From Candidatus Aldehydirespirator sp. (lineage in GTDB: Bacteria; Actinomycetota; Acidimicrobiia; Acidimicrobiales; Aldehydirespiratoraceae): DNA of 64,000 nt. A program made the translations under genes and the position numbers. This document shows, one piece after another, positions 18,874-63,801 of the stretch. The notes under the pieces were generated by a model that saw only the letters and a list, made by a program, of their open reading frames with translations, ran no database searches and had not been told where the DNA came from. Position 1 is the first letter of the stretch. The number at the start of each line of letters is the position of its first letter. The stretch lies in assembly GCA_965204875.1 (NCBI GenBank), contig OZ242020.1, forward strand, positions 104,992 through 168,991. Reading direction: 5' to 3'.

Positions 18874-21513
18874 TTAGCCGGAGGGTTCGCTGAAGTTGAT
18901 GATGCCGACTGTGGCGGGTGTCTGGTCCCGGTCATCATCGGCGCCGGGGGCGTTGTCCCGCAAGCGGATCAGGAACAGGACACTGCTCTTGTCGCCCGTC
19001 TCAGTCTCGTCGGTGTCGTTCATCCAGGTTGAGAAGGTGAGACTGCCGTCCGCGCCGGTGTGGCGGGTGTGGCGGTACTGGTCCCAGTTGGGAGAAGACT
19101 GGACGGCTGAGGGCCAAACTTGGAAATCGTTTGACCCCCCCTCCCTCTTAACCCTGTTCGCGTGTTTCTTGCCGGGTTCGGGGAAGTAGATGCGTTGGAG
19201 CTCAAACGTGGCGCGGCTGGTGCCGTCGGCGCCGGCTGTGGTGTCAGAGTTGCCTGCTCTGAGTTGCACCGTGATGGCCACTTCGTCACCGTAATCGGCC
19301 TCAACGGGGGCGTTCTTGTTCTTTTTTGTGTCATCCCCCTTCTTGAACGACTTCTGCAGATCCGCGCCCTCCGACTTCACGGTGATGCTGTCAGCAGCCG
19401 TTCCAGAGGGAACGGTCACGGTCGGCGCGGACCCAGAAGTGATGCGGTCGCCCTCTGACACATGCACGTAGAACACATGCAACCGCTTGTTGTCCAGCAC
19501 CTTCCTGGTGTCCAGGTTGATGATCGCCGTAGAGGCCGGACCGTTGAACTCCTCGAGCACGCGGATCACGATCGTCTTCTTATCACCGGCAGTGCTCGGG
19601 TTCGGGTCCGCCGGCGCAGTGACAGGGAACGAGACCATGCCCGTACCGTCGGTCTTCAGCGTATATTCAGCATCGATATCATAATCACTAACGGTCTCGC
19701 ATTCAGCATCACCACATTGAGGATCGAGTCGGGTATAGCCGATGTACTCGGTGACCTCATGCATCTTATTCCGACGGGGACTATAACGCATCGCGGTAGC
19801 ATGTCCATCCACATCAAATTGCCAGGAATGCAGATTGACAGGGCTGGCACCGTCGACACCGAACGCGGCGCGCTTCAGCTTGTCACCGTCGTTCTCGTCG
19901 GTGTGCAACAACTGCACCGTGAACTGCGACCAATCACCGAACTTCATCTCAAAATAATGGGCACTCTCGCTGTCCGTAGCCTTCGTGTCCGCAACCTTGT
20001 CATCATCAGCCGTAATACGCAACGACTCCGCCGCCACCTGACTCAACGGCAAAGTCGTGGTCGTGGTAGTCGTAGTGGTCGTAGTCGTGGTAGTCGTAGT
20101 CGTCGTCGTGGTAGTCGTAGTCGTCGTGGTAGCCGGGGTGGTAGTCGTAGTCGTAGTAGTCGTGGTAGCCGGGGTGGTAGTCGTAGTAGTGGTAGCCGGG
20201 GTGGTAGTCGTGGCAGTCGTAGTAGTTGTCGCGACCGGGGCCGAACCACCACCGCCACCGCCTGCAGGGGCGGCGGGAACAACCGCGGCCGCGGCCGGCA
20301 CCGTGACAGCATCAGGATCACCGGCGATGCGCAACTCGAAACCATTCACCTCGCCGTTGTAACGGGTGCCGCGGTCGCCGGTCCAGACCCACACCGTCAC
20401 ACCCCGACCAATGGTCGACGCGCTCAACTCGTCCAGTTTGACATCGCCGTCGGCGCCGGTCACCGGGTCACGCGCATCGATCGCGCACGCCGTGGAGGTG
20501 CGGTTAACGCTGCGCACGAGAGCGTTGCACCCGCCCCGCAGATCAAACGCCCGATAGCGGCGCTGCGAACTCACATAGAACCCATCCACCGGCGCCCCCG
20601 ACACCGGCCTGAACGTCGCGTCGCGCACCGACACCACCACCACACCACCGTCGGCCTGCGCCGTCACACCCGCCGGACGCACCCCCGTGTGCGCCAGCGT
20701 GCGCTTGATGAACGACGCCATATTTTTGCGCGGCACCGGACCCTCAGGATCAAACCTCCTCGCATCCCCGGCGCTGCCCGTCGTGATACCAAGCTCATAG
20801 GCGTAACTCGCCGCAACACGCGCATCCCCCGCAGGCACATCTGCGAAATGATCCAGCGTCCCACCCGAACCCAGGATCAGCTCACCCGCCATCGCGCCGT
20901 CCTGATGGAACAGGCCGGGGCTGGCATGGCGCAGGAACCCGATCAGAGCCACCGCCATCTCGGCCCGCGTGATGCTCGCATCGGGCCTGAACGCCATCCC
21001 CGAGCCGGCCAAAATGTCGTTGCGAGCCAGCGCCAGGATCGCGTTGCGGCGCTCCTCGTCGAGATCGGCGACATCGTTGAAGTCGGCGGCGCCCGAGCCG
21101 CCTGTCAGATCCACCCCGGCGACCCCAGCAGCCCTGTGCAAGAACAACGCCATCTGCGAACGCGACACCTCAGACCCGGCATCGAACCGCTCGGCCGTCC
21201 TGCCCCTGGTGATCCCGTAATACGCGATGCAGTTGATCGCATCCTCAGCAACCAACCCCTCGACATCCACAAACCCAGCATCCTCCGACGCGTCACCAAA
21301 ACACGCAGAAAACACCGGCAACGCATCAGCCTCCGCGCGGTCGTCCCCCACAGGCGCAGCCCCGACCGGCGCAGCCACCACAACCCCACCAACCAGACCA
21401 GCCACCAACAACACACACCACAACAAACCACCACCACGACACCGGCGGCGGCGGCCGGCTACAACATCAGCAGCCCCCCCCCCCCGGGGCGAAGTACGAA
21501 CCATCAGAGACAT
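18874..21513 (-). CDS. SLH-domain surface (S-layer-like) protein with poly-Thr linker, paralog 1
   Basis: The conserved start MSLMV lies behind GGAGAGG. It is followed by an Arg-rich n-region and a hydrophobic signal, then three SLH-like repeats (FVDVEGLVAEDAINCIAYYGITRG..F.., FNDVADLDEERRNAILALARNDILAG..FRPDASITRAEMAV, and others). A poly-Thr/Pro/Ala linker of about 60 aa, a variable middle and a conserved C-terminus complete the protein. Confidence 0.8.
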   Translation of the reverse strand: MSLMVRTSPRGGGAADVVAGRRRRCRGGGLLWCVLLVAGLVGGVVVAAPVGAAPVGDDRAEADALPVFSACFGDASEDAGFVDVEGLVAEDAINCIAYYGITRGRTAERFDAGSEVSRSQMALFLHRAAGVAGVDLTGGSGAADFNDVADLDEERRNAILALARNDILAGSGMAFRPDASITRAEMAVALIGFLRHASPGLFHQDGAMAGELILGSGGTLDHFADVPAGDARVAASYAYELGITTGSAGDARRFDPEGPVPRKNMASFIKRTLAHTGVRPAGVTAQADGGVVVVSVRDATFRPVSGAPVDGFYVSSQRRYRAFDLRGGCNALVRSVNRTSTACAIDARDPVTGADGDVKLDELSASTIGRGVTVWVWTGDRGTRYNGEVNGFELRIAGDPDAVTVPAAAAVVPAAPAGGGGGGSAPVATTTTTATTTTPATTTTTTTPATTTTTTTTTTPATTTTTTTTTTTTTTTTTTTTTTTTTTLPLSQVAAESLRITADDDKVADTKATDSESAHYFEMKFGDWSQFTVQLLHTDENDGDKLKRAAFGVDGASPVNLHSWQFDVDGHATAMRYSPRRNKMHEVTEYIGYTRLDPQCGDAECETVSDYDIDAEYTLKTDGTGMVSFPVTAPADPNPSTAGDKKTIVIRVLEEFNGPASTAIINLDTRKVLDNKRLHVFYVHVSEGDRITSGSAPTVTVPSGTAADSITVKSEGADLQKSFKKGDDTKKNKNAPVEADYGDEVAITVQLRAGNSDTTAGADGTSRATFELQRIYFPEPGKKHANRVKREGGSNDFQVWPSAVQSSPNWDQYRHTRHTGADGSLTFSTWMNDTDETETGDKSSVLFLIRLRDNAPGADDDRDQTPATVGIINFSEPSG

Positions 21514-21700
21514 CAGCCTCTCCTCTCGAACACCGGCGGAACCCCGCCGACCCGAATCGACCGGCACGACCCTAACACCACCCGGCCGGCCACAAGCCAA
21601 CCCCGGCAGCACCAGCGCCGTGCCACCCACCAACATACCCCCCCCCCCCCCCCGCAACGCAACGCAACCACAACTCCTCAAGACCTTGAAGGGCCGGCAA
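21514..21700 (-). promoter_or_regulatory. Conserved leader/promoter module of SLH paralog 1, containing a poly-G tract
   Basis: About 170 nt are conserved upstream of all three SLH genes. The module includes a run of about 16 C on the plus strand (21638..21653) abutting aacata (TATGTT on the coding strand), and a GGCGG-GGTT-CCGCC hairpin just before the RBS. Confidence 0.5.
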
Positions 21701-21837: not shown

Positions 21838-24381
21838 TTAGCCGGAGGGTTCGCTGAGCCTCACGATGCCGCTCGTGACCGGAGTGTTGTTGAGGCTGTT
21901 GGCGGCGTTGGGAGCGTTGGTGCTTGAGCGGATCAGGAACACGACACTGCCTGTGTCACCGGCGGCGGTGTTGGGGTCGTCCATCCAAACCGAGAAGGTG
22001 AGACTGCCGTCAGCGCCAGTGTAACGGGTTCGCCGCCACTGATGCCAATCAGTGGACTGCTGGATAGACTCGGGTCTAACCTCCAAATTGCTTCCTCCAC
22101 TCCTTTTGATCCGATTCACGTGACCGGCCGACGGAAAGTAGCCGCGGTGAATATTGAACGCAGCGCGGCTCGTGCCATCCGCTCCAACGGTGGTGTCTGC
22201 ACCGTCAGCGTCCTTGAGTTGAACCGTGACAGTCACCTCATCACCATAATCGGCCTCCACGAACACCTTGCTGCTGTTACCGGACGTGAACGACTTGTCC
22301 GTCTTCGCACCCTTGGACGTCACAGTGATGCTCGCGGCCGCCTCGCCCGCGGGAACTGTCGTGGTCACCGCAGAGCCAGAAGTCGTACGAGCCCCCTCCG
22401 TCACAAGCACAACAACCACATGCAACCGCTTGTTCGGCAGACCCGTGAACGCGGGAGAAGCCGGACCGTTGACCTCCTCGACAATATGGAGCACCAGCGT
22501 AGCCCTGTCACCCGCAGCGCTTGGGTTCGGATCCGCCGGCGCTGTAACAGCGAACGAAGCCATCCCCGTGCCATCGGTCTTCAGAGTATGCTGAGCAACG
22601 TTATTCGGAGTTTCAGCGCAGGGGTCGCCGCCCCGAAAACCATCCACATAAGCATGGTCATTAGCGACAACTTTAGAAACAGCCTCAGAAATGCTGGTAC
22701 TACACGGAGAAAGGCCAACTCCACGACCCGTCCCGTTGACCTGCCGAACATCGACCAGCACCGGGTTCGTGCCGTCCACACCGAACGCGGCGCGCTTCAC
22801 CCTGTCACCATCGTTCTCATCGGTGTACAACAACTGCACCGTGAACTGCGACCAATCACCGAACTTCATCGCATAATAGGAAACCTTATTTTGATCAATG
22901 AGCCTGGAACCCGCAACAGTCTCATCATCAGGCGTGATGCTCAACGACTCCGCCGCCACCTGACCCAACGGCATAGTCGTAGTAGTCGTCGTCGTCGTCG
23001 TGGTGGTAGTGGTCGTAGTCGTCGTCGTCGTAGTCGTCGTCGTCGTAGTCGTCGTAGCAGTGGGCGTAGTCGTAGTCGTGGTGGTGGTGGTTGCCGGGGC
23101 GGAACCACCGCCGCCGCCTGCAGGAGCGGCGGGAACAACCGCGGTCGCGGCCGGCACCGTGACAGCCCCAGCCTCCCCAGCGATGCGCAACTCGAAACCG
23201 TCCACACTGCTGTCGTTGTAAGAATCGCCGCGGTCGCCGGACCACACCCACACCGTCACACCACGACCAATCGTCGCAGCGGTCAACTCGTCCAGCCTCA
23301 CATCACCGCCGGCACCGGTCACAGGATCACGCGCGTCGATCGCGCACACCGTCGAAGTGCGGTTCACGCTTCTGACGATCGCGTTGCACCCGCCCCGCAG
23401 ATCAAACGCCCGATAGCGGCGCTGCGAACTCACATAGAACCCATCAACCAACGCACCGGCCACCGGCGCGAACACCGCGTCACGCACCGACACAACCACC
23501 GTGTTGCCGTCAGACTGCGCCGTCACCCCCGCCGGGCGCACCTTCGTGTGCGCCAGCGTGCGCGTGATGAACGACGCCATATTCTTGCGCAGAACGGGAT
23601 CACCAGGCGAGAACAGGCTCGCGCCCGCCGCGCTGCCCCTGGTGATACCAAGCTCATACGCGTAGGAGACCGCCGTGTCCACACCCTCAGGCAGACCGCG
23701 ACGCGCGTCAGCGAAATGATCCAGCGTCGCACCCGAACCCAGGATCAGCTCACCGGCCATAGCGCCGCTCCGATGGAACAGTCCGGGGCTGGCATGGCGC
23801 AGGAACCCGACCAGTGCCACCGCCATCTCGGCCCGCGTGATGCTCGCATCGGGCCTGAACGCCATCCCCGACCCGGCCAAGATGTCATTGCGGGCCAACG
23901 CCATGATCGCGTTGCGGCGCTCCTCGTCCAAATCCGCGATGTCAGCGAAGTCGGCGGCACCCGAGCCGCCTGTCAAATCCAACCCCGCCATCCCAGCAGC
24001 CCTGTGCAAGAACAGCGCCATCTGCGAACGCGTCACCTCAGACCCGGCATCGAACCGCTCAACCGTCCTGCCCCTGGTGATCCCATAGTACGCCAGGCAG
24101 TTGATCGCAGCCTCAGCAACCAACCCCTCAGTGTCCACGAACCCCGCGTCACGCGTGGCATCACCCACACACGCCGAAAACACCGGCAACGCATCGGCCT
24201 CCGCGCCGCTGCTGCCCACAGGCGCAGCCCCAACCGGCGCAGCCACCACAACAGAACCCACCAAACCAACCACCAACAACGCAGACCACCATAAGCGAGG
24301 CTTACCCCCGCCACGGCGGCGGCCAGCTACAACATCAACCAGCCCCCCCCCCGCGGGTGAAGTACGAACCATCAGAGACAT
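21838..24381 (-). CDS. SLH-domain surface protein with poly-Thr linker, paralog 2
   Basis: The architecture and N-terminal half match paralog 1 (MSLMVRTSPAGGG...). The central region of about 200 aa has diverged. The C-terminus is conserved (...YTGADGSLTFS.WMDD...VVFLIRSSTNAP...SEPSG). Confidence 0.8.
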   Translation of the reverse strand: MSLMVRTSPAGGGLVDVVAGRRRGGGKPRLWWSALLVVGLVGSVVVAAPVGAAPVGSSGAEADALPVFSACVGDATRDAGFVDTEGLVAEAAINCLAYYGITRGRTVERFDAGSEVTRSQMALFLHRAAGMAGLDLTGGSGAADFADIADLDEERRNAIMALARNDILAGSGMAFRPDASITRAEMAVALVGFLRHASPGLFHRSGAMAGELILGSGATLDHFADARRGLPEGVDTAVSYAYELGITRGSAAGASLFSPGDPVLRKNMASFITRTLAHTKVRPAGVTAQSDGNTVVVSVRDAVFAPVAGALVDGFYVSSQRRYRAFDLRGGCNAIVRSVNRTSTVCAIDARDPVTGAGGDVRLDELTAATIGRGVTVWVWSGDRGDSYNDSSVDGFELRIAGEAGAVTVPAATAVVPAAPAGGGGGSAPATTTTTTTTTPTATTTTTTTTTTTTTTTTTTTTTTTTTTTMPLGQVAAESLSITPDDETVAGSRLIDQNKVSYYAMKFGDWSQFTVQLLYTDENDGDRVKRAAFGVDGTNPVLVDVRQVNGTGRGVGLSPCSTSISEAVSKVVANDHAYVDGFRGGDPCAETPNNVAQHTLKTDGTGMASFAVTAPADPNPSAAGDRATLVLHIVEEVNGPASPAFTGLPNKRLHVVVVLVTEGARTTSGSAVTTTVPAGEAAASITVTSKGAKTDKSFTSGNSSKVFVEADYGDEVTVTVQLKDADGADTTVGADGTSRAAFNIHRGYFPSAGHVNRIKRSGGSNLEVRPESIQQSTDWHQWRRTRYTGADGSLTFSVWMDDPNTAAGDTGSVVFLIRSSTNAPNAANSLNNTPVTSGIVRLSEPSG

Positions 24382-54120: not shown

Positions 54121-54131
54121 GACCCGAAACG

Positions 54132-55655: not shown

Positions 55656-55751
55656 CTTCTCAGTACCTTCCTTTCGGAGGGATCGCGTAGGCTACAAGCG
55701 AGCACAGGCGCCGCAGCGCGCACCACAAGTTGAGGGGCGCTTGTCCAGTGG

Positions 55752-56015: not shown

Positions 56016-57398
56016 GTGCCGGTGGGCGAGATGGTGGCGAGTGAGGCGTGGCTGCCCTCAGCGGGCGGGCTGCAACGGCGGCGCTATCACGGCTACCTGC
56101 CCGACCCGCTGAGCGACTGGGCCCCCGAGCCGGACGCCGCGTTGCAGGCTGCGATCGATGCCGCCGATCAGCACTGCGCCCGGATCGGCCGCATGGGAGG
56201 CGCACCGCTGGGGGTTGCCGTGGCGTCCTGGGTGGTCGCACGCGACGAGAGCATCCAGTCGAGCATCATCGAAGGCATCCGCACATCGAGGGATGCCCTC
56301 GCCTGGGCGCAGTACCGAGAGCGCACCGGTCAGCCGATATTCGACGCGAACAGCGCGCTGACGCTGGGCGCGGGGCGGCAACTCGAGGCCGCCCGCGAGT
56401 TGGGCGAGCGCATGAGAGAGGGCGAGGCCTGCCGCGTGGAGGACTTGCGTGCGCTGCACGCGGCCCTCTGCGAGAACACCCCTGATCGCCACATTGCCGG
56501 AGTCGTGCGGCATGAGCCCATCTGGATAGGCCCTCCCAACTGCCGGATCGAAGATGCTGCCTTCGTGGCGCCGCCGCCCTCGTATGTGCCCGATCTGCTG
56601 GAGGACTTGACGCATTACATCAACTCGGCACGTCACTCTCCGGCGTTTCAAGCCGCCGCCGCTCACGCACAGTTCGAGGCGATCCACCCGTTCGAGGACG
56701 GCAACGGCAGAACCGGCAGGGCACTCATCCACGCGGTGCTCATAGCCCGAGGAGTGGTGAACGGCGCAGTGCCCATCAGTTCCACGCTCGAACGCGAGCG
56801 CCGTGAATATTATGCGGCGCTCAACGAGTCGCATGTGCTGTGCGCGCCCGGCGACTCGCGGGCACGCCTGTCCGGATTGAGCAGATGGCTGCTGCTGTTC
56901 CGGGACGCCGCCGCCGAAGCCGAGGAGCACGTTCGGCATGCTCTCGAATCTGCCGAGGCGTTAATCTCCCAATGGCGCAATAGGGCGCGTCTGAGAGCGG
57001 GGAGCGGCGCGACCGCGCTCCTAGAGGCGCTGCCGTCAATGCCGATCTTGACGGCTGACATGGCTGCCCGAAGATTGGGCATGAGTCCCAAGTCCGCACG
57101 CACCGCGATACGCACGCTGACACGGGCAGGCATTCTCAAGCCGATCGGCGGCAAGCGCAACGGGCGCTACACGGTGCCCGACGTCATCGAGTTGATCCCG
57201 ACCACTACGCCGGAAGGGGGCGCGGTGGCGGCCAACTACAGCACCGCGGCAGCCGCAGCGTCATCGCTGTTGGACGCCTTGCCACCCAACGCCGCCGCCA
57301 GGCAGCATATCGTGTGCGCGTACCTGGGCCCGCGCTCCAAGAAGCCCTGCCTGCTGCCCAAAGGCCACGGCGGTCAGCACCGCTACACAACCCGGTGA
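56016..57398 (+). CDS. Fic family protein
   Basis: Fic motif HPFEDGNGRTGRAL and a C-terminal wHTH-like region. The start is uncertain. Confidence 0.85.
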   Translation: MPVGEMVASEAWLPSAGGLQRRRYHGYLPDPLSDWAPEPDAALQAAIDAADQHCARIGRMGGAPLGVAVASWVVARDESIQSSIIEGIRTSRDALAWAQYRERTGQPIFDANSALTLGAGRQLEAARELGERMREGEACRVEDLRALHAALCENTPDRHIAGVVRHEPIWIGPPNCRIEDAAFVAPPPSYVPDLLEDLTHYINSARHSPAFQAAAAHAQFEAIHPFEDGNGRTGRALIHAVLIARGVVNGAVPISSTLERERREYYAALNESHVLCAPGDSRARLSGLSRWLLLFRDAAAEAEEHVRHALESAEALISQWRNRARLRAGSGATALLEALPSMPILTADMAARRLGMSPKSARTAIRTLTRAGILKPIGGKRNGRYTVPDVIELIPTTTPEGGAVAANYSTAAAAASSLLDALPPNAAARQHIVCAYLGPRSKKPCLLPKGHGGQHRYTTR

Positions 57399-57733
57399 GA
57401 TCGGATTGGGCCTGCCCGGCCGGCACGGCCGGATCGCTCCACTCATTGAAGGCCCCAAGCCAGGCTGCTGCCCGGAAGCCGTTGTCCCACTGTTCGCGCT
57501 CCGTCATCCGCAGGGGCACCACACAGGCTGATTGAAGACCGCGGCCTGCCCTCAACCGTCACGCTGAGGCAGAGCAAGCGCAACGCCGCATCACCCTTCC
57601 CTCCAGTAAGTGCCCAGTAGCGCTGCTGTGCGCCTGTGGATTGGCCCACCAATGCCGGATGCGCTCGTAGGCGCCCAGCGGCGCGGGGCGCGCCCCCCAC
57701 GACCTCCCGGAGGTCGGGGCGGCTGCGCGATCG

Positions 57734-57808
57734 AGCGCCGGGCGGGATTTGAACCCGCGGCTTCACGGCTTTGCAGGCCGTTCCCTTCGGCCACTCGGGC
57801 ACCGGCGC
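57734..57808 (-). tRNA. tRNA-Cys (anticodon GCA)
   Basis: The reverse complement GCGCCGGTGCCCGAGTGGCCGAAGGGA-ACGGC-CTGCAAA-GCCGT...GCGGGTTCAAATCCCGC-CCGGCGCT closely resembles actinobacterial tRNA-Cys. Confidence 0.85.
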
Positions 57809-57944
57809 GGGGTTCCAAGCGTACCGGCGACACCGGCGCCTGCCGCGGCCTCCGGCGGTCGCAGCGGACTCCTTCAGTTCGCAGCAATGACGGTGTACGT
57901 TGTTGGGTTATCGCCGCGGCCTCCGGCGGTCGCAGCGGACTCCG

Positions 57945-58577
57945 TCAGCGCCGGCGGGAGCGGGCGGCCACCGCTGCGGTCACCGACGCCGCCCCCGCCG
58001 AGTGCAGGCACCTCGCGACCGCACGCAACGTTGCGCCGGTGAGCATCACGTCGTCCACAAGCACTATGTGGCGGTCCGCAACCGGCTCCAGCGCCATGTA
58101 ACCCAACCCTGCGGCAACCTCGTCGTGCGCCTCGGGCTCGACGTCTTGCATCTTGGGCGAATCGCGCCGGCGGCCGAGGAGGCCGGGGCGCCACTCCCCC
58201 GCCCCGGCTGCCGCCAACGCTCGCGCCAGATGCGAAGCCACGGTCGCAGCGCGCCCCCTCGTTGCCGCGTGATCGACCTGGGTGAGTGGCGCATAGGCGT
58301 CATCGGATGCCCGACCGGGCCGCGACACCAGGGTCGGATCGCCCTGCCCCGTGGCCGATGGCGGCCCCGAGGGCACGCCCGTGACCAGGTTCGGCGGGCC
58401 GCCCGATGGCACGGGGATCCGGGCCGCCAGGCCCGCGAAGCGAACGGCGAGCCGGGCCGCCGCCGCCGGGTCGTCCAAGTCCCGGGCCCTGTGCACCAGC
58501 AGGCCGACCTCGGTGCGGACATTGCCGGCGGGTCTCCAGTAGTCGTCGAGCACATGCAGGCTCTCGACGCCTCGCAT
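57945..58577 (-). CDS. ComF-family phosphoribosyltransferase-like protein
   Basis: C-terminal PRTase motif HIVLVDDVMLTGATL. The listed start at 58622 overlaps tRNA-Gly, so an internal start (ATG at 58577 or later) is more likely. Confidence 0.6.
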   Translation of the reverse strand: MRGVESLHVLDDYWRPAGNVRTEVGLLVHRARDLDDPAAAARLAVRFAGLAARIPVPSGGPPNLVTGVPSGPPSATGQGDPTLVSRPGRASDDAYAPLTQVDHAATRGRAATVASHLARALAAAGAGEWRPGLLGRRRDSPKMQDVEPEAHDEVAAGLGYMALEPVADRHIVLVDDVMLTGATLRAVARCLHSAGAASVTAAVAARSRRR

Positions 58578-58580
58578 CGG

Positions 58581-58653
58581 AGCGGACGACCGGCCTCGAA
58601 CCGGCGACCTCAACCTTGGCAAGGTTGCGCTCTACCAACTGAGCTACGTCCGC
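58581..58653 (-). tRNA. tRNA-Gly (anticodon GCC)
   Basis: The reverse complement GCGGACGTAGCTCAGTTGGTAGAGCG-CAACC-TTGCCAA-GGTTG-AGGTC-GCCGGTTCGAGGCCGGT-CGTCCGCT. Confidence 0.9.
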
Positions 58654-58759
58654 GAAGAAGCGACGATGCTAGCGCCGCACTCCAGCACCGACACCGGCAC
58701 CCAGACATCAGACACCGCTGAGCCGGTCGTTGCCGAAGGGAGAGGAAACAGTTTCGGCT

Positions 58760-59770
58760 CTAGTGGCGGTCGCCGGGCGCGGCGGGCGACCCGGGCGCAT
58801 CGCGCACGCTGACCGCCGCGGCGCGCAAGGACCCGGCCACTGCATCGGCATCAGCGAGCTCCGCCTCCTGATCGGCACTGATCGGCAGCAGCCTCTCCAG
58901 CGGGGAGCGCGCCTCCGCGGACGCGTGCGCCAGCAGTTCGGCGGCGGCTGCTAGGTGGTCTGCGGCATTCTGATCGTTGGTCTGTTCCGTCATCTCCTGA
59001 GTGGAAGACGCATATCCGGCAAAGCGCCAGTTTGTGAACGCCCCCTTGGAATCGCGCGGCAGGGCACCGAGGGCAGCAGACACCGCCGCGTGAACATCCT
59101 GCTCGTCAACGAGCGCATCAAGCATCTTCTCTATCTTGTGATCGCGGTCGAGGACGCGCCCCTTGCGCAGGCGTCCTATCGCGTTCAGCGATGACTCGAG
59201 GCAAAAGTGGGAGTCTTCCAACATGTTCAGCAGCGCCCACGACCCGGGACGATCTTCGCTAGTCGAACTATGGCTGAAGGCAGCGTCACAGGCCGAAGAT
59301 CCTTTGCGCGCGCCCTGCATAATTTCGTTGATGGCGAGCTGCCTATCGTTGCGTGCCATAGTCCACGCCGCTCCTTCCCGCTCCGCGATATCGCCGTCAA
59401 TCTCTGAATGTCCGCTCAGGGTGCGCCCGTGGCGGACGGCCTCGCTGTAAACGGACGAGCGTGCATATCGGGTGCTCCAGGCAAGCTGCCGCGGCGTCAC
59501 CGGCATAGCGTCACAGTCGAAACCGGTGACGCCATGCGCCCGGTCTTGCAACTCGCCCTGCAGCGCCTCGAACTCCGACTCCGAGCAGTCCGGCGTGTCC
59601 ACGACCACCAGCAGGTCGATGTCGGAGCGCTCCGTCGCCGCGTTCTTGGCGACCGAACCGAACAGCACAACCGCCTCGATCTCAGGATGCGCATCCCGAA
59701 GAGCCTCCGCGGCGCGCTGAGCATCAGCAGCAGTAGGAATGGAGGCAGCCGAGTTGCCGGGAGTGCCCAT
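58760..59770 (-). CDS. Fused nucleotidyltransferase (MNT-type) and HEPN-like protein, paralog A
   Basis: N-terminal LFGSVAKNAATERSDIDLLVVV (the GS...DxD NTase motif). The C-terminal half carries GRLRKGRVLDRDHK, which fits the HEPN Rx4-6H motif. Confidence 0.6.
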   Translation of the reverse strand: MGTPGNSAASIPTAADAQRAAEALRDAHPEIEAVVLFGSVAKNAATERSDIDLLVVVDTPDCSESEFEALQGELQDRAHGVTGFDCDAMPVTPRQLAWSTRYARSSVYSEAVRHGRTLSGHSEIDGDIAEREGAAWTMARNDRQLAINEIMQGARKGSSACDAAFSHSSTSEDRPGSWALLNMLEDSHFCLESSLNAIGRLRKGRVLDRDHKIEKMLDALVDEQDVHAAVSAALGALPRDSKGAFTNWRFAGYASSTQEMTEQTNDQNAADHLAAAAELLAHASAEARSPLERLLPISADQEAELADADAVAGSLRAAAVSVRDAPGSPAAPGDRH

Positions 59771-59889: not shown

Positions 59890-59919
59890 GGGAGGCCCGG
59901 CGGCGTTGCCGGGCCTCCC
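59890..59919 (-). terminator. Hairpin downstream of SLH paralog 3
   Basis: It has the same GGGAGGCCCGGC / GCCGGGCCTCCC stem as the hairpins at 18815 and 21781. Confidence 0.6.
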
Positions 59920-59952: not shown

Positions 59953-62355
59953 TTAGCCGGTGGGTTCGCTGAGTCTCACGATGCCGCTTGTGACCGGGGT
60001 GGTGCCGAGGTCGTTGGTGGCGTCGGGGGCGTTGGTGCTCGAGCGGATCAGGAACACAACGCTGCCCGAGTGGCCCGAGGTGCCGGTGTCGGGGTCGTCC
60101 ATCCAGGTTGAGAAGGTGAGGCTGCCGTCAGCGCCGGTGTAACGGGTCCGCCGGTACTGGTCCCAACCGCTGGACGCCTCGGCAGACCGCGGCATAATCA
60201 CAATATCGCGCGCTCCCGCCCTTTCAATCGAGTTCGCGTGACCGCCTGTCGGGAAGTAGAGACGTTGGATATTGAACGCAGCGCGGCTCGTGCCATCCAC
60301 ACCGACGGTGGTGTCACCGTCAGCGTCCTGGAGTTGCACCGTGATCGACACCTCATCACCATAATCGGCCGCCACGAACGTCGAGCTTGTGGTCCCGGAC
60401 GTGAACGACTTGTCAGTCTTGGCACCGTTGGACATCACGGTAATCTTGGTAGCCGCGTCGCCGGCGGGCACGGTCGTGGTCACCGCGGACCCAGAAGTCG
60501 TGCGCGCACCCTCCGACACATGCACAATGACCACATGCATCCGCTTGTTCGGAACAGCAGTGATCGCAGACGATGCCGGACCGTTGATCTCCTCCACAAG
60601 ATGAACTACCAGCGTGCGCCTGTCACCCGCAGTGCCCGGGGTCGGATCCGCCGGCGCCATAACAGCGAACGAAGCCATACCCGTGCTATCGGTCTTCAGA
60701 GTATGCTGAGCAACGGTAGCATCGTTTCGAGTGGAATTGAGATAGTCGTTAGCAACAACCTTCGGCGTAGCACTACTGAACTGAGAAGGGTTCTTTAGGT
60801 GAGTATCGATGTCGACCTGCCGAACATCAATCAACACAGGGTTCGTGCCGTCCACACCGAACGCGGCGCGCTTCACCTTGTCACCATCATTCTCGTCGGT
60901 GTACAACAACTGCACCGTGAACTGCGACCAGTCACCGAACTTCATCTGGTAATAGTCACCGCCACCACTAAAGGTGGCCTTGGTAGCCGCAACCTTCTCA
61001 TCATCAGGCGTGATACTCAACGACTCGGCCGCCACCTGACCCAACGGCATAGTAGTCGTAGTCGTCGTAGTGGTCGTAGTAGGCGTAGTCGTCGTCGTCG
61101 TCGTGGTCGTCGTGGCGGAACCGCCGCCGCCGCCTGCTGGGGCGGCGGGAACGACCGCGGTCGCGGCCGGCACCGTGACAGCGTCAGGATCACCGGCGAT
61201 GCGCAACTCGAACCCGTCCACACTGCTGTCGTTGTAAGAATCGCCCCGGTCGCCGGACCAGACCCACACCGTCACACCACGACCGATGGTCGCGGCGGCC
61301 AGCTCGTCCAGCTTCACATCACCATCGGCGCCGGTGACCGGATCACGCGCGTCGACCGCGCACGCCGTCGAGGTGCGATTCACGCTCCGCACGAGCGCGT
61401 TGCACCCGCCCCGCAGATCAAACGCCCGATAGCGGCGCTGCGTGCTCACATAGAACCCGTCAACCGGCGCACCAGCCACCGGCATGAACATTGCGTCGCG
61501 CACCGACACCACCACCGTGTTGCCATCGGCCTGCGCGGTCACGCCAGCGGGGCGCACACCCGTGTGCGCCAACCAGCGCGACACGAACGATGCCAGGTTC
61601 TTGCGCAGCACACGACCCTCAGGATCAAACTTGCTCCCATCGCTGGCGCTGCCCGTCGTCAACCCCAACTCGAACCCATAACTCGCCGCCGTGCCCACAC
61701 GTCCCGAACGCGCGTCGCTGAAATGATCCAGGCTGCCCTCGCCGAGCTTCAACGCGCCCGACGCGTCGAACAGGCCCGGGCTCGCCAACCGCAACAACCC
61801 CACAAGCGCCGCCACCGTCTCAGCACGCGTCACCGGCACACCGGACATGGCACCGTCACCCGAGAGCACACCGGCGGCGGCCAACGCCGCCACAGCACGC
61901 CGGGTCTCATTGTCCATCGCGGCGTCGCCATCCATCCCGGCGTCATCTTCGGCGTCACCGAACTCAACCCCCGCGAGCACCGCCGCCCGATACAACACCA
62001 ACGCCAACTCCGCACGCGACACCACCGCACCGGCACCGAACCGGTCCTCAGACGCGCTCACGGCGACCCCGTAATACGCCAGACAGTTCACCGCGTCCTC
62101 AGCGCCGATACCCGCAACATCCACAAACCCCGCATCCCCCAACGCGTCACCAAAACACGCAGAAAACACCGGCAACACATCAGCCTCCGCGCCGCTGCCG
62201 CCCACAGGCGCGGCCCCAGCAGGAGCCGCTGCCACAACCCCACCAACCAAACCAACCACCAACAACACACACCACAACAAACCACCACCACCACCACGGC
62301 GGCGGCCGGCTACAACATCAGCCAGCCCCCCCCCCGCGGCGAGAACCACTACCAA
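59953..62355 (-). CDS. SLH-domain surface protein with a shorter poly-Thr linker, paralog 3; the conserved start is apparently out of frame
   Basis: The architecture matches paralogs 1 and 2. The ORF track starts this ORF at a TTG (MVVVLAAGGG...). The conserved RBS and ATG-TCT-CTG-ATG lie a few nt upstream in a different frame. Confidence 0.7.
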   Translation of the reverse strand: MVVVLAAGGGLADVVAGRRRGGGGGLLWCVLLVVGLVGGVVAAAPAGAAPVGGSGAEADVLPVFSACFGDALGDAGFVDVAGIGAEDAVNCLAYYGVAVSASEDRFGAGAVVSRAELALVLYRAAVLAGVEFGDAEDDAGMDGDAAMDNETRRAVAALAAAGVLSGDGAMSGVPVTRAETVAALVGLLRLASPGLFDASGALKLGEGSLDHFSDARSGRVGTAASYGFELGLTTGSASDGSKFDPEGRVLRKNLASFVSRWLAHTGVRPAGVTAQADGNTVVVSVRDAMFMPVAGAPVDGFYVSTQRRYRAFDLRGGCNALVRSVNRTSTACAVDARDPVTGADGDVKLDELAAATIGRGVTVWVWSGDRGDSYNDSSVDGFELRIAGDPDAVTVPAATAVVPAAPAGGGGGSATTTTTTTTTTPTTTTTTTTTTMPLGQVAAESLSITPDDEKVAATKATFSGGGDYYQMKFGDWSQFTVQLLYTDENDGDKVKRAAFGVDGTNPVLIDVRQVDIDTHLKNPSQFSSATPKVVANDYLNSTRNDATVAQHTLKTDSTGMASFAVMAPADPTPGTAGDRRTLVVHLVEEINGPASSAITAVPNKRMHVVIVHVSEGARTTSGSAVTTTVPAGDAATKITVMSNGAKTDKSFTSGTTSSTFVAADYGDEVSITVQLQDADGDTTVGVDGTSRAAFNIQRLYFPTGGHANSIERAGARDIVIMPRSAEASSGWDQYRRTRYTGADGSLTFSTWMDDPDTGTSGHSGSVVFLIRSSTNAPDATNDLGTTPVTSGIVRLSEPTG

Positions 62356-62540
62356 CCATCAGAGACATCTGAGCCTCCCCTTTCTCTCGAACGCCGGCAG
62401 AACCCCGCCGACCCGGCTAGACGGCACAACCCTAACACCACCGGCCGGCAACACGCCAACCCCGGCAGCACCAGAGCCACACCACCCACCAACATACCCA
62501 AGCCGCCCCCCGGCACGCAACAACCACAAACCCTCAAGGC
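62356..62540 (-). promoter_or_regulatory. Conserved leader/promoter module of SLH paralog 3
   Basis: It is homologous to the other two leaders. Here the poly-C run next to aacata is interrupted (ccc aag ccg cccccc). Confidence 0.45.
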
Positions 62541-62790
62541 CGAGAACGGCCGGCTAGCAGCGCATGGACATCATCCAAGCGCCTGCACGAACTGCGACGC
62601 CCCAGCCGGCTCGCCCCCCTGCTGCCGACGACGGCCCCCCGACGGCACGTCCGTGACCAGATCCGGCAGGCCGACCGACGAACCGGGGACCTGAGCTGCA
62701 AGGCACCGGTCGCTTGACACGACGCATCGCACAAGCACGTTGCCGCACTGGCGCGGACGCGGCACGCCGCCGGCAGGAACAGCTTCGGCT

Positions 62791-63801
62791 CTAGTGGCGG
62801 TCGCCGGGCGCTGCGGGCGAACCGGGCGCATCGCGCACGCTGACCGCCGCAGCGCGCAAGGACTCGGCCACTGCATCGGCATCAGCGAGCTCCTCCTCCT
62901 GATCGGCGCTGATCGGCGGCAGCCTCTCCAGCGAGCCGCGCGCCTCTGCTGCCGCGTATCTCAAGAGTGCCGCCGCAGCTTCCAGATGAGCCGCAGCGTT
63001 CTCCTCGGTTGTCTCAGCCATCAGCTTCGGGGTTGCCCCAGCGTAGAGCGCGAGCCGCCACCTCGTGAACTCGCCCTTGTCGTCGCGCGGCAGGTCGCTG
63101 AGCGCCACGGAGGCTGCCGCATACGCATCGACTTCTTCGGCTAGCTCCTCCAGCATGATCTCAATCCGATGATCGCGGTCAAGGATGCGCCCCATACGCA
63201 GGCGTCCTACCGCGTTCAGGCAGGCTTCGGCACAAGCATGGGAGCTTTCCAACGCGTCCTGCAGTGTCCGCAGTCGCTTGCCGGCACCGCTAGAAATCAG
63301 CAACTCTCGCGCTGCTCGGTCCGCCGACTCCGCCTTCCTTGCAGCCTGCATAATTTCGTTGATGGCGAGCTGCCTATCGTTGCGTGCCATAGCCCATGCT
63401 GCCCCTTCCCGCTCAGCGATATCGCTGTCAATCTCTGAATGTCCGCTCAGGGTGCGCCCGTGGCGGACGGCCTCGCTGTAAACCGACGAGCGCGCATATC
63501 GGGTACTCCAGGCAAGCTGCCGCGGCGTCACCGGCATAGCGTCACAGTCGAAACCGGTGACGCTATGCACCCGGTCTTGCAACTCGCCCTGCAGCGCCTC
63601 GAACTCCGACTCCGAGCAGTCCGGCGTGTCCACGACCACCAGCAGGTCGATGTCGGAGCGCTCCGTCGCCGCGTTCTTGGCGACCGAGCCGAACAGCACA
63701 ACCGCCTCGATCTCAGGATGCGCATCCCGAAGAGCCTCCGCAGCACGTTGAGCATCAGCAGCAGTAGGAATGGAGGCAGTGGAGTTGCTAGGAGTGCTCA
63801 T
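62791..63801 (-). CDS. Fused nucleotidyltransferase (MNT-type) and HEPN-like protein, paralog B
   Basis: It has the same length (336 aa) as paralog A. The first ~135 and last ~45 residues are nearly identical to paralog A, the middle has diverged, and RMGRILDRDHR is conserved. Confidence 0.6.
   Translation of the reverse strand: MSTPSNSTASIPTAADAQRAAEALRDAHPEIEAVVLFGSVAKNAATERSDIDLLVVVDTPDCSESEFEALQGELQDRVHSVTGFDCDAMPVTPRQLAWSTRYARSSVYSEAVRHGRTLSGHSEIDSDIAEREGAAWAMARNDRQLAINEIMQAARKAESADRAARELLISSGAGKRLRTLQDALESSHACAEACLNAVGRLRMGRILDRDHRIEIMLEELAEEVDAYAAASVALSDLPRDDKGEFTRWRLALYAGATPKLMAETTEENAAAHLEAAAALLRYAAAEARGSLERLPPISADQEEELADADAVAESLRAAAVSVRDAPGSPAAPGDRH

What the first reader, a model, noticed from the sequence alone, without database searches (positions are those of the whole stretch)
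62318..62370. Third SLH paralog: the conserved RBS and ATG are out of frame with the long ORF across the G tract (candidate OFF state)
The coding strand reads AGGGGAGGCTCAG ATG TCT CTG ATG GTT GGT AGT GGT TCT CGC CGC, followed by the G run. The ORF track starts the 800-aa ORF at a TTG (MVVVLAAGGGLADVV) in a different frame. That frame requires a 10-nt G run. With 10 G, the conserved ATG frame terminates after about 16 codons (...GGG GCT GGC TGA). Loss of a single G would restore MSLMVGSGSRRGGGLADVV..., collinear with paralogs 1 and 2. My own manual count of the printed run gives 9-10, so the frame call relies on the ORF track. The TTG has no RBS at a suitable distance.
Basis: partly seen in the sequence, partly recalled or inferred. 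Interest (0 to 1): 0.75.

Follow-up and report, generated by a model that had tools for sequence, protein, structure and literature searches.

The report
Poly-G frameshift switch, surface-protein gene OFF
A run of ten G's just after the start codon puts the third copy of a cell-surface (SLH-anchored) protein gene out of frame, and with matching G runs in its two sister genes and in a related genome this looks like a classic slipped-strand on/off switch, here in an uncultured Acidimicrobiaceae-like bacterium, though a homopolymer assembly error cannot be excluded without the reads.

Summary
On the minus strand, a GGGGAGG ribosome-binding site (62380-62374) and ATG (62368-62366) are followed 33 nt later by exactly 10 G (62335-62326). 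That frame stops at TGA 62320-62318 after 16 codons. The 800-codon SLH-protein ORF (59953-62355) lies in the +1 frame and only has a TTG without an RBS. G9 or G12 would restore MSLMVGSGSRRGGGLADVV..., collinear with paralog 1 (G12, in frame) and paralog 2 (G10, in frame).

All five G/C runs longer than 7 nt in the 64 kb lie in the 5' ends of these three genes: one coding tract each, plus a tract abutting a TATGTT -10-like box in paralogs 1 and 2. In paralog 3 the promoter tract is interrupted.

An independent metagenome contig matches 13.3 kb with no substitutions. It differs only by +1 G in both paralog-1 tracts, which puts paralog 1 out of frame there. A homolog from a related genome (aconitase 85% identical) has the same layout with G15 and G15, also out of frame.

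Paralog 3 is otherwise intact (dN/dS about 0.43). Best reading: a slipped-strand contingency locus captured translationally OFF. This is a new member of a known kind. No second assembly covers paralog 3, so a homopolymer miscall remains possible.

The parts
62326..62335 (-). Coding-region poly-G tract (G10) of paralog 3. This is the frameshifting simple-sequence repeat.
   Evidence: It starts 33 nt after the ATG. G9 or G12 would be in frame; G10 puts the gene body in the +1 frame.
62366..62380 (-). Conserved ribosome-binding site GGGGAGG (62380-62374), a 5-nt spacer, and the ATG start codon (62368-62366).
   Evidence: It is conserved in all three paralogs (alignment). It is homologous to the start of more distant family members.
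62318..62368 (-). The 16-codon dead-end reading frame from the conserved ATG to TGA (62320-62318) in the G10 state.
59953..62355 (-). Body of SLH paralog 3. The 800-codon ORF runs from an RBS-less TTG. It encodes a signal peptide, an SLH region, a central domain, a poly-Thr linker and a C-terminal tandem beta-sandwich region.
   Evidence: 65-72% aa identity to paralogs 1 and 2; dN/dS 0.42-0.44; all-beta C-terminus.
62311..62325 (-). CTGGCTGATGTTGTA(G). This segment carries out-of-frame stops: TGA in one wrong frame and TAG in the other, immediately after the tract.
   Evidence: GATGTTGTAGC is invariant in the three paralogs. Both wrong frames stop within 5 codons or fewer, against a background probability of 0.8%.
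62279..62311 (-). Stable RNA hairpin followed by a U-rich stretch, just downstream of the out-of-frame stops. Possibly a polarity or terminator element; its function is unproven.
   Evidence: terminator-like hits at 62306-62281. (-20 kcal/mol, z = -3.2; paralogs 1 and 2 also fold, at -22.7 and -24.1 kcal/mol).
62491..62520 (-). Putative promoter of paralog 3: TTGCGT (62520-62515), an 18-nt spacer GCCGGGGGGCGGCTTGGG holding an interrupted G tract (G6 at 62511-62506), and the -10-like TATGTT (62496-62491).
   Evidence: Sequence. It aligns with the uninterrupted G16 and G9 tracts of paralogs 1 and 2, which abut the same TATGTT. Promoter function is inferred. The simple sigma-70 scan did not call it.
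62369..62490 (-). Conserved G+U-rich 5' leader between the -10-like box and the start codon.
   Evidence: Near-identical in the three paralogs. A consensus fold is possible, but the pairs are mostly G-U and covariation support is weak. No Rfam family matched.
59890..59919 (-). GC-rich hairpin (GGGAGGCCCGG...CCGGGCCTCCC) about 35 nt after the stop codon of paralog 3. Likely a terminator.
   Evidence: The same hairpin follows paralog 2.
18874..21513 (-). SLH paralog 1 (879 aa from the ATG at 21513). The coding tract is G12 (21474-21485) and the ATG is in frame.
   Evidence: In the independent contig L001/L012 this tract is G13, which is out of frame.
21638..21653 (-). Promoter-proximal G16 tract of paralog 1, directly 5' of TATGTT.
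   Evidence: It is G17 in L001.
21838..24381 (-). SLH paralog 2 (847 aa). The coding tract is G10 (24343-24352) and the ATG is in frame, because only 29 nt precede the tract.
   Evidence: An identical product is called on ENA contig L001.
24510..24518 (-). Promoter-proximal G9 tract of paralog 2, directly 5' of TATGTT.

Best explanation
Paralog 3 belongs to a lineage-specific family of SLH-anchored surface proteins. Expression of these genes appears to be gated by hypermutable poly-G tracts, a slipped-strand-mispairing 'contingency locus'.

Each gene is a self-contained unit with this layout:
- a G tract abutting a TATGTT -10-like box;
- a conserved leader of about 120 nt;
- a GGAGG ribosome-binding site and an ATG;
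- 28-33 nt of coding sequence;
- a second G tract;
- stop codons in both wrong frames;
- the signal peptide and the rest of the protein;
- a terminator hairpin.

Gain or loss of a G during replication changes the reading frame. As sequenced, paralog 3 has G10. Ribosomes that start at the only RBS-served start codon terminate after 16 codons, so the 800-codon body is not translated: the gene is phase OFF. One deletion (G9) or two insertions (G12) would switch it ON. Its promoter tract has decayed to GGGGGGCGGCTTGGG, so for this copy the coding tract is the only remaining switch.

Shown: the anatomy; the frame arithmetic; the conservation across paralogs and in a related genome; the confinement of long G runs to these sites; and the tract-only differences between two assemblies.

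Inferred: actual switching in cells and its rate; promoter function; the absence of protein; and the biological pay-off. The likely pay-off is stochastic variation of the exposed surface coat, for example against phages or grazers.
For: 1. Frame arithmetic. The distance from the ATG to the conserved GAT GTT GTA codons is 45 nt in paralog 1 (28 + G12 + 5) and 45 nt in paralog 2 (29 + G10 + 6). It is 49 nt in paralog 3 (33 + G10 + 6).
2. The ATG is the authentic start. The SD and ATGTCTCTGATGGTT are invariant in the three paralogs. More distant homologs start at the equivalent M-P-Q-L....
3. Long G runs occur only at these loci. The five runs of 9-16 nt are all here, and no other run longer than 7 nt exists in the 64 kb. 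About 4.9 runs of 8 or more are expected, and three runs of 10 or more appeared in 0 of 300 simulations. GGG makes up only 19% of Gly codons in housekeeping genes.
4. An independent ENA contig (L001/L012) matches 13,266 bp with 0 mismatches and exactly two 1-nt gaps. Both gaps lie in paralog-1 tracts (G17 vs G16 and G13 vs G12), which puts paralog 1 out of frame there. The gene caller accordingly returned a truncated 798-aa product.
5. A homolog in a different genome (aconitase 85% identical) has a G15 tract upstream of a TATGGT box. It also has SD-ATG-28 nt-G15, with the ATG out of frame (TAG after 15 codons).
6. Both wrong frames stop within 5 codons of the tract in all four genes, using two different sequences. 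The background probability is 0.8%.
7. Paralog 3 is not decaying. It has 800 open codons and dN/dS of 0.42-0.44, against 0.34 between paralogs 1 and 2.
8. Gene class. A signal peptide plus SLH domain (weak match to the Sap SLH structure) and a beta-sandwich C-terminus indicate a surface protein, the usual cargo of contingency loci.
9. Taxon. The nearest named relatives are Acidimicrobiaceae MAGs. In mycobacteria, the actinobacterial NucS mismatch repair does not correct frameshifts, so homopolymers are unstable there (PMC10159617). Extending this to the present organism is inference.
Against: - No reads and no second assembly cover paralog 3, so G10 could be a consensus error.
- The contig names (ctg..._3x_l, ctg6939c) suggest long-read metagenome assemblies. 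Homopolymers of 10 or more are the weakest point of such data, and the comparison contig has only about 3x coverage. The paralog-1 tract differences could therefore also be errors.
- Only six tract-and-frame observations exist (three in frame, three out of frame). That is too few to show a distribution.
- Promoter elements are inferred. TTGCGT matches TTGACA at only 3 of 6 positions, and the consensus scan did not call it.
- Low-level expression in the G10 state cannot be excluded. It could arise from the TTG or GTG starts, or from slippage of RNA polymerase or the ribosome on the G run.
Confidence: 0.65

Rival explanations
1. Assembly artefact. The true tract in the organism is G9 or G12, and paralog 3 is simply ON. 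The extra G is a homopolymer-length miscall in a long-read metagenome consensus. This would remove the 'OFF state' but not necessarily the phase-variable nature of the tract.
For: - Contig names of the related records (ctg116199_3x_l, ctg6939c, ctg160043_19x_l) suggest long-read metagenome assemblies.
- The only differences between two assemblies of the same 13.3 kb are single-G changes in the two longest tracts. This is also the signature of homopolymer error, and that contig has about 3x coverage.
- No independent sequence of paralog 3 was obtainable.
Against: - The G9 and G10 tracts of paralog 2 are identical in both assemblies, and there is no other discrepancy in 13,266 bp, including G6-G7 runs.
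- No tested housekeeping gene in the window shows a frameshift.
- If the window is part of the 3.05-Mb single contig (aconitase 100% identical), coverage was probably adequate for a correct majority call. This is inference.
- A third genome also shows an out-of-frame tract at the homologous site.
Confidence: 0.2
2. The gene is expressed despite the frameshift. Possible routes are: initiation at the in-frame TTG (62355) or GTG (62349); re-initiation after the 16-codon upstream frame; transcriptional slippage of RNA polymerase on G10; or +1 ribosomal slippage. Any of these would make the G10 state 'low' rather than OFF, or constitute recoding.
For: - The TTG/GTG-initiated product would keep the whole signal peptide (MVVVLAAGGGLADVVAGRRRGGGGGLLWCV...).
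- The L003 homolog likewise has a GTG in the +1 frame just before its tract, within the shared AGTGGTTC motif.
- Start-site switching by repeats near the 5' end is described for Neisseria (PMC5084427).
- A stable hairpin follows the tract.
Against: - The TTG and GTG lie 18 and 24 nt beyond the SD and have no SD of their own. Ribosomes translating from the ATG would also occlude them.
- Paralogs 1 and 2 need no frameshift and have no start codon in the +1 frame before their tracts (sequence). A required, conserved recoding event is therefore not a family feature.
- The hairpin begins about 14 nt after the tract, which is further than the 5-9 nt typical of frameshift stimulators (established knowledge).
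- Slippage on G/C runs is generally less efficient than on A/T runs (established knowledge, not tested here).
Confidence: 0.1
3. Paralog 3 is a pseudogene, a redundant copy permanently inactivated by a 1-nt insertion and on its way to decay.
For: - It is the most divergent of the three copies, and its SLH match is the weakest (22.8 bits against a 20.8-bit cut-off).
- Its promoter G tract is already degenerate.
- It sits in an island-like region with a low-GC methylase, a Fic gene, tRNAs and duplicated nucleotidyltransferase genes.
Against: - The only lesion lies in the hypermutable tract itself. The 800 downstream codons are open.
- dN/dS against the in-frame paralogs is 0.42-0.44, close to the 0.34 between paralogs 1 and 2.
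- The SD, ATG, leader, out-of-frame stops and terminator hairpin are all retained.
- The interrupted promoter tract leaves an 18-nt spacing between TTGCGT and TATGTT, which is compatible with a fixed, functional promoter (inference).
Confidence: 0.05

Closest known systems
Neisseria meningitidis / N. gonorrhoeae simple-sequence contingency loci (e.g. porA and opc promoter homopolymers; hmbR, nalP and pilC coding poly-G)
   Same: - Homopolymeric tracts sit either between promoter elements or just after the start codon of surface-protein genes.
- Changes in length alter promoter spacing or the reading frame.
- Several independently switching paralogs give combinatorial surface variation (mechanisms summarised in PMC5084427; the porA dual control is my own knowledge).
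   Different: - The organism is a different phylum: a high-GC, Acidimicrobiaceae-like, apparently free-living or uncultured bacterium, not a host-restricted pathogen.
- The cargo is an SLH-anchored wall protein rather than an outer-membrane protein.
- Both tracts are poly-G and lie in the same gene unit.
- Switching has not been demonstrated here.
Cutibacterium (Propionibacterium) acnes G/C homopolymeric tracts at dermatan-sulphate adhesin and other surface-protein genes
   Same: - An actinobacterium.
- The tracts are almost exclusively G/C.
- They lie in the 5' UTR or promoter region or within the coding sequence of putative surface proteins, and they affect the reading frame (PMC4746626).
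   Different: - In P. acnes the variation tracked clades and was judged to be slow. Here two otherwise identical 13-kb sequences differ only at tracts.
- The protein family is different (no SLH domain).
- The tracts here are longer (up to 16-17 nt).
Mycobacterium tuberculosis glpK C-tract frameshift phase variation
   Same: An actinobacterial coding-region G/C homopolymer (7-10 C) whose reversible frameshifts silence the gene. It is attributed to NucS-type repair that does not correct frameshifts (PMC10159617).
   Different: - glpK is a metabolic gene with a mid-gene tract.
- It has no paired promoter tract and no multigene family.
- It lacks the conserved out-of-frame stop design immediately after the tract.
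S-layer / surface-coat variation systems (Campylobacter fetus sap inversion, Clostridioides difficile cwpV invertible switch)
   Same: The functional outcome is the same: stochastic ON/OFF control or exchange of wall-anchored surface-layer proteins drawn from a paralogous family (own knowledge).
   Different: Those systems use site-specific or RecA-dependent DNA inversion, not homopolymer slippage. No inverted repeats or recombinase are associated with the loci here.

Membership tests
Simple-sequence-repeat (slipped-strand) phase-variable contingency locus | A hypermutable repeat (a homopolymer of about 8 nt or more) lies within the 5' coding region or the promoter. | tested here: met
   G10 at 62326-62335, 33 nt after the ATG. 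Sister genes carry G12 and G10, plus promoter G16 and G9.
Simple-sequence-repeat (slipped-strand) phase-variable contingency locus | A change in repeat number switches the gene between an intact product and a truncated one. | tested here: met
   In silico, G9 or G12 gives an 804- or 805-aa secreted protein, and G10 gives a 16-codon peptide. Both wrong frames stop within 5 codons.
Simple-sequence-repeat (slipped-strand) phase-variable contingency locus | Tract length is polymorphic among otherwise identical or clonal sequences. | tested here: inconclusive
   For paralog 1, G12/G16 in the window compares with G13/G17 in an ENA contig that has 0 substitutions over 13,266 bp. That contig has about 3x coverage, so sequencing error is not excluded. 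No second sequence of paralog 3 was found.
Simple-sequence-repeat (slipped-strand) phase-variable contingency locus | Switching is reversible and high-frequency, as measured in a population. | not testable with these tools
   This needs reads, amplicons or reporter assays.
Simple-sequence-repeat (slipped-strand) phase-variable contingency locus | The repeat is maintained by selection, being conserved in position across diverged homologs despite its mutability. | tested here: met
   The position is the same in three paralogs with dS of 0.5-0.6 and in a homolog from a genome whose aconitase is only 85% identical. The tract uses the minority GGG codon.
SLH-domain cell-wall-anchored surface protein | SLH repeats are detectable by profile. 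| tested here: met
   Pfam PF00395 scores: paralog 1, 38.9 bits; paralog 2, 42 bits; paralog 3, 22.8 bits (cut-off 20.8). There is a weak match to the B. anthracis Sap SLH structure.
SLH-domain cell-wall-anchored surface protein | An N-terminal secretion signal is present. | tested here: inconclusive
   An RRR n-region, the hydrophobic LLWCVLLVVGLVGGVVAAA segment and an AxA-like PAGA motif are visible in the translation. No signal-peptide predictor was available.
SLH-domain cell-wall-anchored surface protein | The genome has a pyruvylated secondary cell-wall polymer pathway (CsaB). | not tested
   It was not seen among the window genes scanned.
Programmed recoding (ribosomal frameshift / transcriptional slippage gene) | The frameshift is required and conserved in all functional homologs. 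| tested here: not met
   Paralogs 1 and 2 read straight through from the ATG without any shift.
Pseudogene | Multiple disabling lesions and/or relaxed constraint are present. | tested here: not met
   There is a single lesion, inside the tract. The 800 downstream codons are open and dN/dS is 0.42-0.44.

The most novel reading that the evidence does not exclude
A free-living or uncultured Acidimicrobiaceae lineage runs a two-layer poly-G 'switchboard' over a large family of SLH-anchored surface proteins, with a promoter-spacer tract plus a 5'-coding tract on each gene. The family has three copies in this window and at least four more with the same N-terminal module elsewhere in what appears to be the same 3.05-Mb genome (P0001, P0002, P0003, P0006). 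The layout includes built-in out-of-frame stops and a post-tract hairpin, and it is conserved in a relative whose aconitase is only 85% identical. This would give combinatorial, heritable but reversible variation of the cell coat, plausibly as a defence against phages or grazers. It would occur in an environmental actinobacterium rather than in a host-adapted pathogen.
Probability: 0.45. Interest if true: 0.6.

Novelty: new member of a known kind. Interest (0 to 1): 0.45.

Why it matters
Homopolymer-driven phase variation is textbook biology for host-adapted pathogens such as Neisseria, Haemophilus, Campylobacter and Bordetella. It is known from a few actinobacteria (C. acnes, M. tuberculosis). 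I found no report of it for SLH/S-layer-type proteins or for Acidimicrobiia.

If the switching is real, three things follow:
- Uncultured environmental actinobacteria would be shown to diversify their exposed surface stochastically, which bears on phage-host dynamics and on strain heterogeneity in metagenomes.
- Apparent frameshifts at long G runs in long-read MAGs would need handling as possible biology, not silently 'polished' away or annotated as pseudogenes or as N-terminally truncated genes. The gene calls for this family start at M(L)PVFSAC, downstream of the signal peptide.
- The compact 5' module (promoter tract, leader, SD-ATG, tract, dual stops, hairpin) would be directly testable with reporters.

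If it is not real, this is an instructive case of homopolymer error in a metagenome assembly.

Tried and rejected
**Searches for independent or related DNA**
- Genome contigs with the paralog alignment found no confirmed relative.
- Genome contigs with a leader DNA pattern gave 0 hits.
- Metagenome contigs with the leader pattern gave 0 hits.
- Metagenome contigs with a conserved coding pattern gave 8 hits, all chance matches in unrelated sequence.
- Viral contigs found none.

**The look-up of encoding contigs**
- Nothing was on record for P0001, P0003, P0004 or P0006.
- Nothing was on record for paralog 3 as an 800-aa or a 741-aa product.
- Nothing was on record for either flanking nucleotidyltransferase.
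- Only paralog 2 and its upstream neighbour were found, both on the same ENA contig.

**Exact look-ups**
- Ten start-codon and tract-length variants of paralogs 1-3 were looked up. None is in the collection.

**Leader-only protein searches**
- The word-indexed search gave no hits.
- The exhaustive profile search gave only 2 hits: a fragment starting after the tract, and a distant 939-aa homolog.

**Other checks**
- Rfam found only four tRNAs and nothing in the leader.
- The consensus promoter scan did not call the TTGCGT/TATGTT pair.
- A consensus fold of the leader has weak covariation, so I make no claim for it.
- The antisense ORF 60799-62694(+) and small neighbouring ORFs have no Pfam match, and I rejected them as genes.
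- The in-frame ATG-like triplet in TGATG right at the stop (62318-62316) is in the third frame and stops after 2 codons. I rejected it as a coupled restart (sequence).
- Structure search of the C-terminal region returned only generic Ig-like, adhesin or pilin beta-sandwich matches with TM about 0.2. No specific function can be assigned.


Full report
**1. The observation**

I read 62100-62600 on the minus strand. The sequence is ...GAGAAAGGGGAGGCTCAG ATG TCT CTG ATG GTT GGT AGT GGT TCT CGC CGC, then GGGGGGGGGG, then CTGGCTGATGTTGTAGCC...
- The ribosome-binding site GGGGAGG occupies 62380-62374.
- The ATG is at 62368-62366.
- The G run is exactly ten bases, 62335-62326, confirmed by pattern search and by a run-length scan.
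- From the ATG the frame reads GGG GGG GGG GCT GGC TGA, so it stops at 62320-62318 after 16 sense codons.

The mechanical ORF list places the long ORF at 59953..62355(-), 800 aa, starting at a TTG. That TTG is 13 nt downstream of the ATG and therefore in the +1 frame. Deleting one G in silico gives an uninterrupted 804-aa protein beginning MSLMVGSGSRRGGGLADVVAGRRR... Left as sequenced, the ATG frame contains 39 stops. The TTG lies 18 nt beyond the 3' end of the SD and has no SD of its own.

**2. The gene and its family**

The window holds three paralogs on the minus strand:

| Paralog | Gene coordinates | Length from ATG | Coding tract | Frame of ATG |
|---|---|---|---|---|
| 1 | 18874-21513 | 879 aa | G12 (21474-21485) | in frame |
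| 2 | 21838-24381 | 847 aa | G10 (24343-24352) | in frame |
| 3 | 59953-62368 | 804 aa if G9 | G10 (62326-62335) | +1 out of frame |

- All three hit Pfam SLH near the N-terminus, at 38.9, 42 and 22.8 bits against a 20.8-bit cut-off. They also match the SLH domain of B. anthracis Sap weakly.
- They are 65-72% identical in protein sequence.
- They share the same order of parts: signal-peptide-like N-terminus, SLH region, a highly conserved central domain, a poly-Thr linker of very different length (about 70, 45 and 24 residues), and a variable C-terminal region.
- An AlphaFold model built with 12 homologs (pLDDT 75) folds the C-terminal region as tandem beta-sandwiches. Only generic matches to adhesins, pilins and Ig-like folds were found.
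- The antisense ORF 60799-62694(+) has no family match.

The frame arithmetic is simple. From the ATG to the conserved codons GAT GTT GTA the distance is 28 + 12 + 5 = 45 nt in paralog 1, 29 + 10 + 6 = 45 nt in paralog 2, and 33 + 10 + 6 = 49 nt in paralog 3.

**3. The ATG is the real start**

The SD and ATGTCTCTGATGGTT are invariant in the three paralogs. More distant family members from other assemblies begin MPQLVKKRRSGWAVLA... with an ordinary signal peptide. A closer homolog, P0009 on locus L003, begins at the DNA level ATG CCT CAG TTG TTT AGT GGT TCC CGC C-G15. That would read MPQLFSGSRRGGGG..., the same N-terminal pattern as MSLMVGSGSRRGGG in paralog 3.

**4. Long G runs are confined to these genes, and there are two per gene**

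The only G/C runs longer than 7 nt in the 64 kb are these:
- G12 (21474-21485, coding) and G16 (21638-21653, promoter-proximal) in paralog 1;
- G10 (24343-24352, coding) and G9 (24510-24518, promoter-proximal) in paralog 2;
- G10 (62326-62335, coding) in paralog 3.

A first-order Markov model of the window expects about 4.9 runs of 8 or more, scattered anywhere. Three or more runs of 10 or more occurred in 0 of 300 simulations, and none reached 16. GGG is a minority Gly codon in housekeeping genes of the window, at 19% against 69% for GGC.

The upstream tracts abut a conserved TATGTT, and sequence conservation among the paralogs begins there. I read this as a -10-like box with the tract in the promoter spacer. 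This is inference: there are no TSS data and the sigma-70 consensus scan did not call it.

In paralog 3 the corresponding segment is GCCGGGGGGCGGCTTGGG. That is an interrupted tract which leaves a fixed 18-nt spacing between TTGCGT (62520-62515) and TATGTT (62496-62491). With the same TTGCGT as reference, paralog 1 has a 19-nt spacer and paralog 2 a 14-nt spacer. The three copies may therefore sit in different transcriptional states as well, but this is speculative.

**5. Evidence from other sequences**

*An independent contig of the same sequence.* The exact paralog-2 protein is encoded on an ENA metagenome contig, ERZ26693861 ctg116199_3x_l, 17.5 kb (loci L001/L012). Over 13,266 bp it is identical to window 18577-31840, with 0 mismatches and exactly two one-base gaps. 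Both gaps lie in paralog-1 tracts: G17 vs G16 at the promoter and G13 vs G12 in the coding region. With G13, paralog 1 is out of frame there, and the gene caller returned a truncated 798-aa product. The paralog-2 tracts (G9, G10) are unchanged. The first 162 nt of L012 do not match the window at all, so the contig is from a structurally different strain or assembly, not a copy of the same record.

*A homolog in a related genome.* L003 comes from a 3.45-Mb contig whose aconitase is 85% identical to the window's. It carries G15 upstream of a TATGGT box. It also has SD AAAGGAGAGG, an ATG, 28 nt, and then G15. Its ATG frame ends at TAG after 15 codons, and the caller used an RBS-less GTG in the +1 frame. 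This is the same configuration as paralog 3.

*Identity of the organism.* The window's aconitase is 100% identical to a protein from a 3,054,164-bp contig. The nearest named relatives are 'Acidimicrobiaceae bacterium' MAGs at 85-86% identity.

*Further family members.* That same 3.05-Mb contig encodes at least four more members with this N-terminal module (P0001, P0002, P0003, P0006). All are called from M(L)PVFSAC, downstream of the signal peptide. Their DNA was not retrievable, so their tract states are unknown.

*Breadth of the leader.* An exhaustive profile search with the leader of paralogs 1 and 2 found only two representatives among 1.84 billion proteins. The poly-G leader subfamily is therefore narrow.

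**6. Features consistent with a switch rather than a broken gene**

- In all four genes both wrong frames hit a stop within 5 codons of the tract. The window paralogs use CTG(A/G)..GATGTTGTAG and L003 uses CTTAGTGCTCTAG. The background probability of this at a random codon position in this genome's genes is 0.8%.
- A stable hairpin follows in each paralog (-20, -22.7 and -24.1 kcal/mol; z = -3.2, -3.1, -2.0). In paralogs 1 and 3 it is followed by a U-rich stretch. It might reinforce polarity when ribosomes stop early, but its role is unproven.
- Paralog 3 has no other lesion in 800 codons. Its dN/dS against paralogs 1 and 2 is 0.42-0.44, comparable to 0.34 between paralogs 1 and 2.
- Each gene ends in a conserved GC-rich hairpin, so each is a self-contained unit.

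**7. Mechanism**

The best-supported explanation is slipped-strand mispairing at the G tracts during replication. This produces heritable, reversible ±1 changes that gate translation through the coding tract and probably transcription through the promoter tract. In the sequenced state paralog 3 is translationally OFF, and G9 or G12 would turn it ON.

- Shown: the anatomy, the frames, the conservation, the confinement of long runs, and the tract-only differences between two assemblies.
- Inferred: the switching itself, its rate, promoter function, and absence of the protein.
- Background: in mycobacteria the NucS mismatch-repair system corrects substitutions but not frameshifts, and homopolymer frameshifts such as the glpK C-tract act as reversible switches (PMC10159617). 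Applying this to an Acidimicrobiaceae-like organism is inference, because its repair genes were not examined.

**8. Rivals**

- *Homopolymer miscall.* Contig names suggest long-read metagenome assemblies, and the comparison contig is at about 3x coverage. Both the G10 call and the paralog-1 differences could therefore be errors. Against this, the shorter tracts and 13 kb of flanking sequence agree perfectly, no tested housekeeping gene is frameshifted, and a third genome is also out of frame at the same site. I put this at about 0.2. It would cancel the 'OFF' call but not the contingency-locus design.
- *Expression despite the frameshift* through TTG/GTG initiation, re-initiation or slippage: about 0.1. 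The starts lack an SD, and the in-frame sisters show that no recoding is required.
- *Pseudogene:* about 0.05, given the intact and constrained ORF.

**9. Comparison with known systems**

The mechanism is that of classical SSR contingency loci: Neisseria promoter-spacer and 5'-coding homopolymers (PMC5084427) and Campylobacter poly-G tracts (PMC8355987, listed). Within actinobacteria the comparable cases are the G/C tracts at C. acnes adhesin genes (PMC4746626) and the M. tuberculosis glpK tract.

It differs in three ways:
- the host is an uncultured Acidimicrobiaceae-like lineage;
- the cargo is a family of SLH-anchored wall proteins;
- both tract types are paired consistently on each gene, together with dual out-of-frame stops.

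S-layer variation systems known to me (C. fetus sap, C. difficile cwpV) use DNA inversion instead. Full-text searches found no paper that combines SLH proteins or Acidimicrobiia with homopolymer phase variation.

**10. Verdict**

This is a new member of a known kind, of moderate interest (0.45). The decisive test is read-level tract-length distributions at the three 5' modules.

Noticed in passing
window 21638-21653, 24510-24518, 62497-62514 (minus strand): A second poly-G tract sits directly 5' of a conserved TATGTT box upstream of each paralog: G16 in paralog 1, G9 in paralog 2, and a degenerate GCCGGGGGGCGGCTTGGG in paralog 3. This suggests promoter-spacer phase variation in addition to the coding switch. 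Paralog 3 appears to have lost it.
   Followed up: partly
L001/L012 (ENA ERZ26693861 ctg116199_3x_l) vs window 18577-31840: An independent contig is identical over 13,266 bp except for +1 G in both paralog-1 tracts (G17/G13), which puts paralog 1 out of frame there. The first 162 nt of L012 match nothing in the window, so there is a structural breakpoint near window 31840, inside the ORF 31583-33346.
   Followed up: partly
window 58760-59770 and 62791-63801 (minus strand): Two paralogous 336-aa Polbeta/MntA-like nucleotidyltransferase genes bracket paralog 3. They are 83% identical at the nucleotide level over about 1.09 kb. This is a possible duplication or recombination scaffold around the SLH gene.
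   Followed up: partly
window 54000-58700: The neighbourhood downstream of paralog 3 looks island-like. It has a low-GC stretch (0.56) carrying an N6/N4 DNA methylase (54132-55655, minus strand), a Fic-domain gene (56016-57398, plus strand), and tRNA-Val (55749-55826), tRNA-Cys (57733-57808) and tRNA-Gly (58579-58653).
   Followed up: partly
window 62279-62311, 21420-21464, 24285-24329 (minus strand): Stable RNA hairpins (-20 to -24 kcal/mol, z -2 to -3.2) lie immediately after the out-of-frame stops in all three paralogs. In paralogs 1 and 3 a U-rich run follows. In paralog 2 the 3' arm has a different sequence but still pairs. These may be polarity or attenuation elements, or a by-product of Arg and Gly codon repeats.
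   Followed up: partly
window 62369-62490 and homologous leaders 21514-21631, 24382-24503: The G+U-rich 5' leader of about 120 nt is more conserved among the paralogs than the coding sequence. Synonymous divergence in the first 70 codons (dS 0.23-0.31) is also lower than in the C-terminal half (0.4-1.0). This suggests gene conversion or nucleotide-level constraint on the 5' module. No Rfam match was found.
   Followed up: partly
window ~20053-20260, ~22975-23110, ~61051-61125 (minus strand): The poly-threonine linkers differ greatly in length between paralogs (about 70, 45 and 24 residues). They are encoded by ACN repeats, which gives a second, in-frame source of length variation. A (GGT)5 repeat lies at about 62283-62297.
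   Followed up: no
window 30194-30360 and 37280-37437: There are two short tandem direct repeats: a 74-nt period at 97% identity between the SbcC-like and SbcD-like genes, and a 66-nt period at 88% identity.
   Followed up: no
L003 2820-3075: In the related genome, an array of about 11 perfect 22-nt tandem repeats (GCTGAGGTGTTGTTGGGCTGAG) lies between asd and the SLH homolog. Duplicated promoter-like motifs (GGTGGGTGGCGTG) lie upstream of its G15 tract.
   Followed up: no
proteins P0001, P0002, P0003, P0004, P0006 (not in the window): Public gene calls for this subfamily all begin at M(L)PVFSAC or MADALPVFSAC, downstream of the signal peptide and right after an internal GGAGG. Automated annotation therefore seems to truncate these genes systematically, either because their tracts are out of frame or because of the internal SD.
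   Followed up: partly
window 3259-4980, 9787-11454: An HNH endonuclease-domain protein and an N6 DNA methylase-domain protein lie at the left end of the window, in a lower-GC stretch (0.63 over positions 1-4000).
   Followed up: no
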